A stretch of 64,000 nucleotides of DNA from Octopus sinensis. Lineage: Eukaryota. Position 1 is the first letter of the stretch; every line of letters begins with the position of its first letter. The position numbers and the translations under genes were made by a program. Shown here piece after piece: positions 36,901 to 39,900 of this stretch. The notes under the pieces were generated by a model. It ran no database searches, was not told the DNA's origin, and saw only the letters and a list, made by a program, of their open reading frames with translations. The DNA is taken from NCBI RefSeq assembly GCF_006345805.1, contig NC_042999.1:156612001-156676000 (forward strand), given 5' to 3'.

Positions 36901-39900
36901 AGTTTTCAGTCATAGGGCTCTGCCTACTAGGAGACCATCTTCAAGGATTTATGTGAGTATATCAAACCCTAGTACTTATTTTTAAGCCTGTTACACAACA
37001 AAATGTTGATTTTGTAAACATAAATACACTCACCACACATGTTCACACACACACACACACACACACATTATGGAATGAACTAGACTCTCATTCCTTCAAT
37101 GAATGTTGGTTCAGCAAGACACAGCTGCACAGTGATCTTAGTTCAATGTATTTTATGTCATAAAAAAATCCACATCTGCTCCAGATCTCTGGAAAATGAC
37201 CCTCACCCTATGGCTACTTGTGTGCCAGGTGAAAGCTGGCGGCTTCCTCTAGCATCCTGTACCTACCCCCATTGTCTCTTTCCCTATTGCCACTGGACTT
37301 ATGAAGAAAGTCTGATGTTGTTGGTGGCTTGGCTTGCTAAATAACCTACACAATGTATATTATCATTGTGGGTACGGTTTGTGCAAATCCAGCCCCATTC
37401 TCTCCTCCTTCACACTTGTATTGTCTAGGGCAATAAGTACTATGAACCCAGTAGTTATCAGGGTGCAGGATTTGTATGGAGTCACCATCTCTTAGATGCT
37501 CAGAGCTGAAGGGTTTTCATCTACTCTGAGTCTGCTGGGGTGTCTGTGAGTGACCTTTTCCAAGATGCAATTCTGTAACATTCTAATTAATCCATAACTG
37601 GGATTCTGGCAGGTGCTACTGTGCCAGGCAAGAGCAGACTTGGGAATAATAGTAGCTAAGACATAGTTCCACACTTCTTCAAAACCTTGAGCTTCCAAAG
37701 CAGGGCCCCACTACCAGATGCAGTTAAAGACATACCCAGTTAAAGACATATAAAAATAATAAATGTGCCCTTTTAAAGCCTAGCCAGGCTCATGAGCCCA
37801 GTTTCCTGGTTTCAATGGTGTATGTGTTCCCCAGCTGGACGGGACACCAGTCCATTGCAGCGTTACTCATTTTTGCCAGCTGAGTGGACTGGAGCAACGG
37901 GAAATGAAGTGTTTTGCTCAAGAACACAACGCGTCGCCCGGTACAGGAATCGAAACCACAATCTTATGATCATGATGCTGACACCCTAACCACTAAGCCA
38001 TGCGCTTCTACAAAGACATATATATATATACATACATACACACATTTGTGTGTGTGTGTGTGTGAGAGAGAGAGGGGGAGAAAGAGGGAGAGAGAGAGGG
38101 AGAAATAATATATATAGCAATGCTGCATGAAAGCTGTGAGTGCAACGAAATGATGCAAGCATACTCTGCTGATTGTGTAATATCTATGTGCATGTATGAC
38201 AAAGGACATATGTGTTGAGAGAAAATTTGGCCATAATAGGCATTAAATGTAATGTATAAGAGAGAAGACTGCACAGGTACAATCATGTCATTTGAGTAAT
38301 TTTCTCTCAGCAAGTTTATGGGAGTTTTTTATTTGAAAAATCATTTTCTTACACTTGAAAGATGTCCAGAATTTTCTGAGGAATCAATTCCCAAGAAAAG
38401 ACGAATAAATGCAATTAGATATCCTTTCTCAAACGTCTGAAATAAACCAAAGAAAAAAAATAGTTTTTAATTTTTAATAACATTTAAATAAACAGAAAAA
38501 AAATACAATCTATAAATGTGTTAATCATAATGTTTTCTCATTTTTTGTTTTGTTTCTTTTGCATTATGTTTTTGGGAAGTAAAAGGAGAAAAGAAAAATT
38601 TATCAATGTTTTTATTATATTGAATTTTAGTTTATGCATAGAAATAAATTACGAAGATGTACTCGCATAACAAGAGACCTGATCTGAGATCATGTGCTGG
38701 AACAAAAACAATTGCAGTGTGGAAGATGTTTGTAAGCCATTTAAGAAACACACAAAAGCCGTTCGATTCACTTCAACATTTAAGTTTAATTTGTCAAAAT
38801 ATTTTCGTCACTAAAATCCGTGACCTGTTCACTGACAAAAATCATTGCTGCAGATTTTAGCGACGAAAATATTTTGACAAATTAAACTTAAATGTTGAAG
38901 TGAATCGAACGGCTTTTGTGTGTCATAGAAATAAAGAATTATTAGAAGTACAAAGACATGAAAGTTAATATAGCAATGCATATGTCTTACATATTACAAT
39001 ATCAAATATTCTATGGTATATTCATTGCCATCATCATCATTGTTTAACATCCATTTTCCATGCATGCATGGGTAGGATGGTTTACTTTTGGCCAAATGCT
39101 TTTCTTGCAATTGTCTCATTATGAAGATGGTATCTATGGTACTTCTCCCTGGAATAAAACCAAACTGCATCTCATGTAACTTAATTCTATCCCTAATATA
39201 AGTTGAGATATAACTCTCTGTAATTTTCATGACCTGGTCCAGCCACCTGATGCCTCTGTAGTTGTTTCTATCTAAGGAATCACCTTTACTCTTGTAGCAG
39301 CTAACTATAATACGTCTACACCAGTCTTTGGAGATGACACCTTTCTGAATAACCTGATTAAACTATGTGAGTGACTAGGCAGTTTACAACACTGTCTGAT
39401 ATTTTAATCAACTCGGATATATCATAGAAAGCCACAATACTGCAGTATTTGTCTCAAGAAAGCATCTGGTTGATGTATAATACTAAAAATAATAGAAGAA
39501 TCAGTAGCAGGCAAAAAGTGTCCAGCAATGGTAGTGGAATTACTGAACCTAGATTTCTTTGCTTCTTTGAGCATCGTCAGTTGAAGGTATCCACTTGATA
39601 TCTATTTGTGACACCAGTGCTTTGTTAACCCTTGTTTTTCTATATCAGTGGAGGCTAAATTTGTCTAAACATGTGCCTGCTAAGTGGCTACTTACTGCTG
39701 ATGAAGTTCAAACAAGCAGAAATTTAGCTTCAACAACTTTACTGCTGCTGGACACTTTACATGTGCTACTGATATTCGTCAGTGCTTTTTAGCACTATGA
39801 TTCTATTCAAATTGTTATCTCTAGATGAAACCTACAGCTGTATGGCTTTCTACAGTACACCCACATTAAGTCAGAATGCTATTTTGAACAAATACTGCTT

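What the first reader, a model, noticed from the sequence alone, without database searches (positions are those of the whole stretch)
38637..38935. Protein-free foldback retroelement carrying a G3-C8-variant hammerhead on the sense strand of a K+ channel intron
Seen: a 275 bp element flanked by a 12 bp TSD (catagaaataaa). Its minus strand (38839-38790) folds by hand into a type I hammerhead: stem I UUUGUCA/UGACAAA, core GUGAACA, one extra G, stem II GUCAC/GUGAC, GAAA, palindromic AAUAUU stem III, and a UUU site. Established: the canonical core is CUGANGA and C3-G8 is a tertiary Watson-Crick pair, so G3/C8 is an exactly compensated swap that CUGANGA pattern searches miss. Minimal hammerheads with palindromic stem III and inverted terminal copies are typical of Penelope-like elements. 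Supporting structure: the sister copy at 29025-29307 has a different stem II loop (GGUCUCAAA vs GGAUUUUA) inside the same stem and core. Inference: a non-autonomous, ribozyme-bearing Penelope-dependent family, lying ~350 nt upstream of a Slo2 acceptor. I cannot tell whether it has already been described.
Basis: partly seen in the sequence, partly recalled or inferred. Interest (0 to 1): 0.85.

Follow-up and report, generated by a model that had tools for sequence, protein, structure and literature searches.

The report
Swapped-core hammerhead in octopus Penelope retrotransposon
This 275-base insert is a short, folded-back copy of the front end of a protein-coding Penelope-type jumping gene, and its hammerhead-shaped RNA has the core base pair flipped (G-C instead of C-G) throughout a family of thousands of copies; it is likely a natural but untested ribozyme variant, and is predicted to be silent in this potassium-channel intron.

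Summary
In detail: a 12-bp target-site duplication, a 74-nt inverted arm, and a hammerhead layout with G3/C8 at 38839-38790 (minus strand), in an intron of a KCNT (Slo2) gene.

The interpretation needs correcting. The insert is not a separate protein-free family. It is the terminal repeat (pLTR) of an autonomous Neptune/Nematis-type Penelope-like element (PLE). A full-length copy has the same G3-C8 motif in both pLTRs, flanking an RT + GIY-YIG ORF, and the insert contains that ORF's first 31 codons.

About 3,700 arms match the motif, and an older decayed family also has G3-C8. Related PLE families have C3-G8 at the homologous place, with compensated stems, which supports a conserved hammerhead fold.

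Copy 5' ends pile up about 23 nt before the core, mostly with an extra G. Short copies are therefore likely reverse transcripts of the capped, uncut mRNA leader. Ends are not enriched at the cut site.

In this copy the inverted arm is predicted to mask the ribozyme. The sister copy at 29 kb has G12A. Cleavage is untested. I found no natural G3-C8 core in print, but two key papers were unavailable.

The parts
38637..38648 (.). target-site duplication, left copy (12 bp)
   Evidence: identical to 38924-38935
38649..38852 (-). sense arm: 3' part of the pLTR of the autonomous PLE, which is also the mRNA 5' leader plus ORF start
   Evidence: 91.6% over 191 nt to the 5' pLTR of full-length copy L154; 95-96% over 130-138 nt to 3' pLTRs
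38649..38708 (-). PLE 'tail' (60 nt) between the two preferred 3' ends, the inferred RT start sites
   Evidence: 84 and 102 of 212 aligned arms end at the two positions
38649..38740 (-). first 31 codons of the PLE ORF (MAYKHLP...), with a stop at codon 17 in this copy
   Evidence: same frame continues into the long ORF in L154 and L166
38790..38839 (-). type I hammerhead layout with G3 (38832) - C8 (38827) swap, extra G, 5-bp stem II, palindromic AAUAUU, U17; predicted cut 38797/38796
38850..38923 (+). inverted partial copy; pairs with 38748-38821 and covers the 3' half of the hammerhead
   Evidence: 75-pair hairpin, -128.3 kcal/mol, z -15.8; hammerhead pair probabilities about 0
38924..38935 (.). 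target-site duplication, right copy
29022..29307 (-). second foldback copy of the family (9-nt loop II allele); G12A and a stem II mismatch in both arms; about 12-bp TSD
38353..38436 (-). downstream exon of the host KCNT/Slo2-like gene (context)
45150..45284 (-). an upstream exon of the host gene (context)

Best explanation
The insert is a short, inverted-repeat copy of the terminal repeat (pLTR) of an autonomous Neptune/Nematis-type Penelope-like retrotransposon, and it carries that lineage's hammerhead layout with G3-C8 in place of C3-G8, likely a weak, conserved ribozyme that is predicted to be masked in this copy. Shown: the parent has pLTR-ORF-pLTR structure, with the motif in both pLTRs about 90 nt before the ATG. 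Related families have C3-G8 at the same place. Inferred mechanism: Pol II starts at a TATA/Inr-like site 23 nt before the core. The element's protein nicks AT-rich DNA and starts reverse transcription inside the ORF (nt about 33 or 92) of the capped, uncut mRNA. It runs about 150-200 nt to the cap, often copying it as an extra G, or stops earlier, and then switches template to make the inverted arm. The ribozyme would cut slowly, as a dimer or with the protein's help, 59 nt after the cap; it is not needed for insertion. In the KCNT pre-mRNA the inverted arm is transcribed first and would form a 75-bp hairpin instead.
For: Parent element: L154 has pLTRs at 2055-2689 and 6392-7050 (94% alike), motifs at 2565 and 6926, and an ORF at 2657-5868 with one frameshift. 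The protein has YVDD, a C-x3-CxxC linker and a CCHH GIY-YIG domain (Pfam E 3e-5). PLE hallmarks: two 3' ends, an inverted arm at 16 of 23 unselected sites, and (TA)n targets. G3-C8 is fixed: 94 of the first 100 listed of 3,678 hits, none C3-G8 (hand count). An older family keeps G3-C8 with N7=C, another loop II, 6-bp stem II and a U-A to G-C change in stem I. The sister family (57% aa) and others have CUGANG, the same extra nucleotide, and GUCACA/UGUGAC. With 3 and 8 left free, the first 100 of 709 hits give C/G 74, G/C 5, U/A 1, C/C 0 (hand count). 5' ends: 38 of 90 arms end at -27..-18 and 1 at -43..-28. 13 of 15 arms ending at -23 follow a G where the template has C, against 9 of 59 elsewhere. 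The engineered C3G/G8C pair partly rescues cleavage, also in a PLE hammerhead that needs protein and is copied uncut (PMC11167929; PMC9901934).
Against: There are no cleavage data. Copy ends are not enriched at the cut site (21 vs 30 at a control position; 5 of 90 arms within 3 nt). Within the young family the core is no better conserved than its flanks (96-100% vs 96-99%). Among 41 old copies stems show no copy-level covariation (permutation p 0.64 and 0.30; 0.81 and 0.71 in the 29 with clear downstream homology). So the selection argument rests on only about four family-level states. The modelled dimer gains only 0.6 kcal/mol over two monomers, and a misfolded duplex is 4 kcal/mol better. 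3 of the 13 extra Gs can come from the inverted arm, one may come from the TSD, and the -23/-26 positions were chosen after seeing the data. The same spot also looks like a 3' splice site. No RT tree separates Neptune from Nematis.
Confidence: 0.8

Rival explanations
1. Same origin, but the G3-C8 motif is catalytically dead or nearly so, and is kept as a structural RNA element (for example protein binding or translation control) or simply inherited.
For: Templates were copied through the cut site, with no end enrichment there. Engineered G3-C8 gives only partial rescue. Stem III is all A-U, and metazoan minimal hammerheads cleave poorly in vitro (PMC4209133).
Against: A double change that exactly restores the 3-8 pair has persisted from an old decayed family (about 50-70% of downstream positions match the young one) to the young one, with U4, G5, A6, GAAA and U16.1 kept. 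Canonical PLE hammerheads are also copied uncut.
Confidence: 0.25
2. One reading: a distinct non-autonomous foldback family that replicates as a 275-nt unit using PLE proteins.
For: Short copies greatly outnumber long ones: 2,995 exact hits of a downstream 28-mer against 409 hits (1 mismatch allowed) of an upstream one. Non-autonomous hammerhead derivatives of PLEs are reported (bioRxiv 10.64898/2026.07.22.740005, abstract and methods).
Against: Nearly every copy has its own fold-back junction and arm length (76 distinct junctions among 90 arms), so the palindrome is made anew at each insertion. Short copies lack the upstream TATA-like site. Loop II alleles match those of ORF-bearing copies.
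Confidence: 0.07
3. The 5' boundary is a splice junction, not a start site: the motif lies just after a pLTR intron, as in Drosophila virilis Penelope.
For: A CTAAC..pyrimidine..YAG sequence precedes position -21, and L154 keeps YAG with other bases. The D. virilis intron ends next to helix I.
Against: The peak is at -23 with a single extra G and no shared exon sequence beyond it. TATATAT lies exactly 30 nt upstream.
Confidence: 0.15
4. This intronic copy self-cleaves the KCNT pre-mRNA and regulates the channel.
For: The motif is complete, on the gene's sense strand, and 359 nt before an acceptor.
Against: The inverted arm lies 5' and covers stem II (3' side), GAAA, the cut site and stem I (3' side). 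Hammerhead pair probabilities are about 0 here, against 0.69-1.0 in the native pLTR context. It is one of thousands of dispersed insertions.
Confidence: 0.04

Closest known systems
[quoted passage not shown]
   Same: In both pLTRs; extra nucleotide between A9 and 10.1; G10.1-C11.1; palindromic short stem III; U17 occurs in listed examples; dispersed single and opposite-strand pairs.
   Different: Their consensus is CUGANGA, with U3-A8 as the only 3-8 covariant mentioned in the text read. Here it is G3-C8. The extra nucleotide is G, whereas their consensus gives H.
Poseidon_Ac PLE of Anolis (Frangieh et al. 2024, PMC11167929)
   Same: Two internal RT start sites in the ORF define the tail; AT-rich targets; uncut RNA is the template; the C3G/G8C mutant partly cleaves.
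   Different: There G3-C8 is engineered, here it is natural. There the ATG is inside the hammerhead, here it is 56 nt after the cut. The tail here is 60 nt. This element has the CxxC linker that Penelope/Poseidon lacks.
Neptune/Nematis EN+ PLEs (Craig et al. 2021, PMC8557442)
   Same: RT followed by a zinc-finger-like linker and a C-terminal CCHH GIY-YIG; 5'-truncated and inverted insertions; microsatellite targets.
   Different: Hammerhead core variant. The clade was not resolved by a tree.
Natural U3-A8 core variants (Perreault et al. 2011, PMC3088659)
   Same: Compensated change of the 3-8 tertiary pair in nature.
   Different: Here it is a double transversion, and it is the standard state of a multi-thousand-copy lineage, not a rare variant.
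Non-LTR retrozymes
   Same: Short, type I hammerhead, PLE-related.
   Different: Retrozymes are head-to-tail tandem units. These are dispersed, head-to-head, TSD-flanked by-products of an ORF-bearing element.

Membership tests
EN+ Penelope-like element | [quoted passage not shown] | tested here: met
   Parent ORF in L154, L158 and L118; Pfam GIY-YIG E 3e-5; RT motifs seen in the alignment; Pfam RT model itself not hit
EN+ Penelope-like element | pLTRs that include the ORF start, with an optional tail | tested here: met
EN+ Penelope-like element | 5'-truncated, often inverted insertions; variable TSD; AT-rich targets | tested here: met
   16 of 23 unselected sites have an inverted arm; 12-bp TSD here
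Neptune / Nematis clades | Zinc-finger-like C..CxxC linker between RT and EN | tested here: met
   CQSNCAVC before the GIY motif
Neptune (as against Nematis) | RT phylogeny with named references | not tested
Hammerhead ribozyme (type I, minimal) | Stems I-III around the core | tested here: met
   stems I and II form with P 0.69-1.0 in the native pLTR context; stem III is palindromic only
Hammerhead ribozyme (type I, minimal) | Literal CUGANGA consensus | tested here: not met
   GUGAACA; the 3-8 pair is kept by a swap; U4, G5, A6, A9, GAAA and UH are present
Hammerhead ribozyme (type I, minimal) | Covariation of stems and of the 3-8 pair | tested here: inconclusive
   present between families, absent among copies of one family
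Hammerhead ribozyme (type I, minimal) | Self-cleavage after N17 | not testable with these tools
   the genomic proxy shows no end enrichment; only contigs were available for RNA
Non-LTR retrozyme / non-autonomous family | Non-coding unit of fixed structure, in tandem arrays | tested here: not met
   variable junctions, dispersed copies, sequence shared with the autonomous pLTR

The most novel reading that the evidence does not exclude
A long-lived octopus retrotransposon lineage runs on a catalytically active natural G3-C8 hammerhead, not reported in nature before and invisible to CUGANGA searches. It sits in the capped mRNA leader, where cutting would remove the cap. Its thousands of foldback copies record in vivo internal priming and copying of the cap, and PLE clades said to lack hammerheads may hide such swapped cores.
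Probability: 0.35. Interest if true: 0.62.

Novelty: new variant of a known kind. Interest (0 to 1): 0.42.

Why it matters
It gives a natural, high-copy test of the hammerhead's 3-8 tertiary pair, known so far from engineered swaps and natural U3-A8 cases. C3-G8 relatives exist in the same genome as controls. Published PLE surveys used CUGANGA descriptors, so 'no hammerhead' calls may miss such cores. The sharp 5' boundary with an extra G is genomic support for the internal-priming model of PLE insertion, and it explains why 200-nt foldback copies dominate. It is unlikely to matter for the K+ channel.

Tried and rejected
Rfam: no hammerhead among the 150 listed of 226 window matches, nor in five loci. 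Those five included three canonical-core relatives, so the blank says nothing.

Copy-level covariation tests were null. The stem II 'compensation' in this copy was rejected as CpG decay.

The first Fisher test for the extra G (10/12 vs 9/59; replicate 4/4 vs 5/47) overstated the case, because G at -26 and several replicate cases are explained by the inverted arm.

The metagenome scan gave one weak, unused locus.

Sequencing runs: no RNA holder was listed on record. The four runs laid were contigs, so they show no ends, strand or splicing.

My script's hammerhead filter missed the sister family; it was found by eye in the 3' UTR.

The sigma-70 promoter scan is irrelevant to a eukaryote. Earlier-findings look-ups returned nothing.

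Open-frame readings of the element in other frames were dropped once the true ORF start was found.

Full report
OBSERVATION. The motif pattern occurs once in the window and in 0 of 100 shuffles. The element lies on the sense strand of a KCNT/Slo2-like gene, between exons that match KCNT1 in order, with the acceptor 359 nt past the predicted cut. The sister copy at 29022-29307 has another loop II allele, as stated, but both of its arms have G12A and a stem II mismatch, so it is not an intact second example.

WHAT IT IS. The genome is 2.7 Gb. A relative of the element's protein, labelled Octopus vulgaris by its source, matches the genome at 99%, so the host is an octopus. The element is a repeat: 3,212 candidates, 2,995 exact hits of a 28-mer and 3,678 hits of the motif, with reversed-pattern controls at 0 for both patterns. 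Walking upstream led through about 1 kb of microsatellite-rich UTR into a GIY-YIG domain and an RT. Locus L154 is a full pLTR-ORF-pLTR copy with the G3-C8 motif in both repeats. Its ORF starts MAYKHLP inside the pLTR and has one frameshift; L158 has 1,042 open codons. The protein has YVDD, a C-x3-CxxC linker and CCHH, which places it with Neptune/Nematis by the definitions in PMC8557442. The window insert is 92-96% identical to these pLTRs and carries 31 ORF codons. Arms end at two 3' positions 60 nt apart (84 and 102 of 212), which is the PLE tail. 16 of 23 unselected sites have an inverted arm, as described for PLEs.

IS THE HAMMERHEAD REAL? Within the young family G3 (159/165) and C8 (166/173) are as conserved as the flanks, and loop II has several alleles. 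This cannot show selection, because the copies are recent. Between families the evidence is better. A search excluding N7=A gave 207 hits against 10 controls. I fetched 53 of the 100 listed hits: 41 chosen for unusual loops and 12 near the young family. Most of the 41 are decayed copies of an older family, with core GUGACCA, 6-bp stem II, stem I GUGUCA/UGACAC and AAUU stem III; 29 of 41 have clear downstream homology to the young pLTR. The sister family (57% aa) has, about 100 nt before its own ATG, CUGAUG(A/C), the extra G, GUCACA/UGUGAC, GAAA and a UH site. A canonical pattern gave 1,704 hits against 19 controls, and one of those families shares the UGUCA stem I strand with the G3-C8 lineage. 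With positions 3 and 8 free, the first 100 of 709 hits were C/G 74, G/C 5, U/A 1 and 20 mismatched, none C/C (counted by hand; Fisher p 6e-6, but copies are not independent). Against this, permutation tests on the old copies show no copy-level covariation, as expected for dead copies. The modelled dimer is also barely favoured. The swap is known to rescue activity partly when engineered. Cleavage itself is untested.

HOW THE SHORT COPIES ARISE (inferred). Of 90 arms taken in genome order, 38 end 18-27 nt before G3, 1 ends in the next 16 nt, 11 run on upstream and 40 end further in. At -23, 13 of 15 arms follow a G where the template has C; 3 can be explained by the inverted arm, 3 contradict it, and 7 have no arm match to compare. 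Elsewhere 9 of 59 follow a G. TATATAT lies 30 nt upstream. That RT copies the cap as an extra G is recalled knowledge, not from a call. The simplest reading is a capped start at -23, internal priming at the tail sites as shown for Poseidon_Ac, a short cDNA, and then a template switch. A splice-site reading remains a minor rival. Copy ends show no excess at the cut site (21 vs 30), so templates were mostly uncut, as in Poseidon_Ac.

THIS COPY. The inverted arm makes a 75-pair hairpin. Forcing the hammerhead costs 33 kcal/mol and its pairs have probability about 0, against 0.69-1.0 in the native pLTR. The arm is transcribed first. Cleavage of the channel pre-mRNA is therefore unlikely.

NOVELTY. 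Ten searches showed no natural G3-C8 core and no octopus PLE hammerhead. Natural U3-A8 is reported. What I read: PMC11167929 and PMC4209133, parts 1-2 of 4 (plus a search and part 1 of 3 of the latter's supplement file 2; file 1 was not searchable); PMC8557442, passages and the introduction; PMC3088659, passages and one section, figures not visible; bioRxiv 2026.07.22.740005, part 1 of 5, supplements not seen; passages only of PMC6765202, PMC11014351, PMC3884650, PMC13282606, PMC3846280, PMC9901934, PMC6155905 and PMC8495972. Lunse et al. 2017, on PLE hammerhead variants, and Hammann et al. 2012 were not available and could already list G3-C8.

VERDICT. A real feature and a new variant of a known kind: the pLTR hammerhead of an autonomous PLE with a natural swapped core. 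Interest 0.42.

Noticed in passing
window 13368-13486 (-): Full-length 5S rRNA match, 98.5 bits, inside the window; gene or retrocopy not examined.
   Followed up: no
L204-L223 (sister PLE family): The ORF-linked sister copies read CUGAUGC (A9C), while other copies read CUGAUGA: a second natural core variant in this clade.
   Followed up: partly
window 38748-38923: The 75-bp hairpin lies about 310 nt before a KCNT exon. It could be an A-to-I editing substrate in a cephalopod (recalled knowledge, untested).
   Followed up: no
window 38997-39362 (-): LINE-like reverse-transcriptase fragment just beside the insert.
   Followed up: no
window 2499-2780, 4237-4518, 5192-5473, 22892-23173, 24684-24996, 45939-46220: A dispersed repeat of about 280 nt, probably a SINE (families D17-D19).
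   Followed up: no
window 17052-17435 and 58355-58738: Two 384-nt copies, 95% alike, in opposite orientation.
   Followed up: no
L101, L303 and 6 of 21 hits: Some fold-back junctions fall exactly at the cut site, but use stem I's own inverted repeat as microhomology, so they mimic cleavage products.
   Followed up: partly
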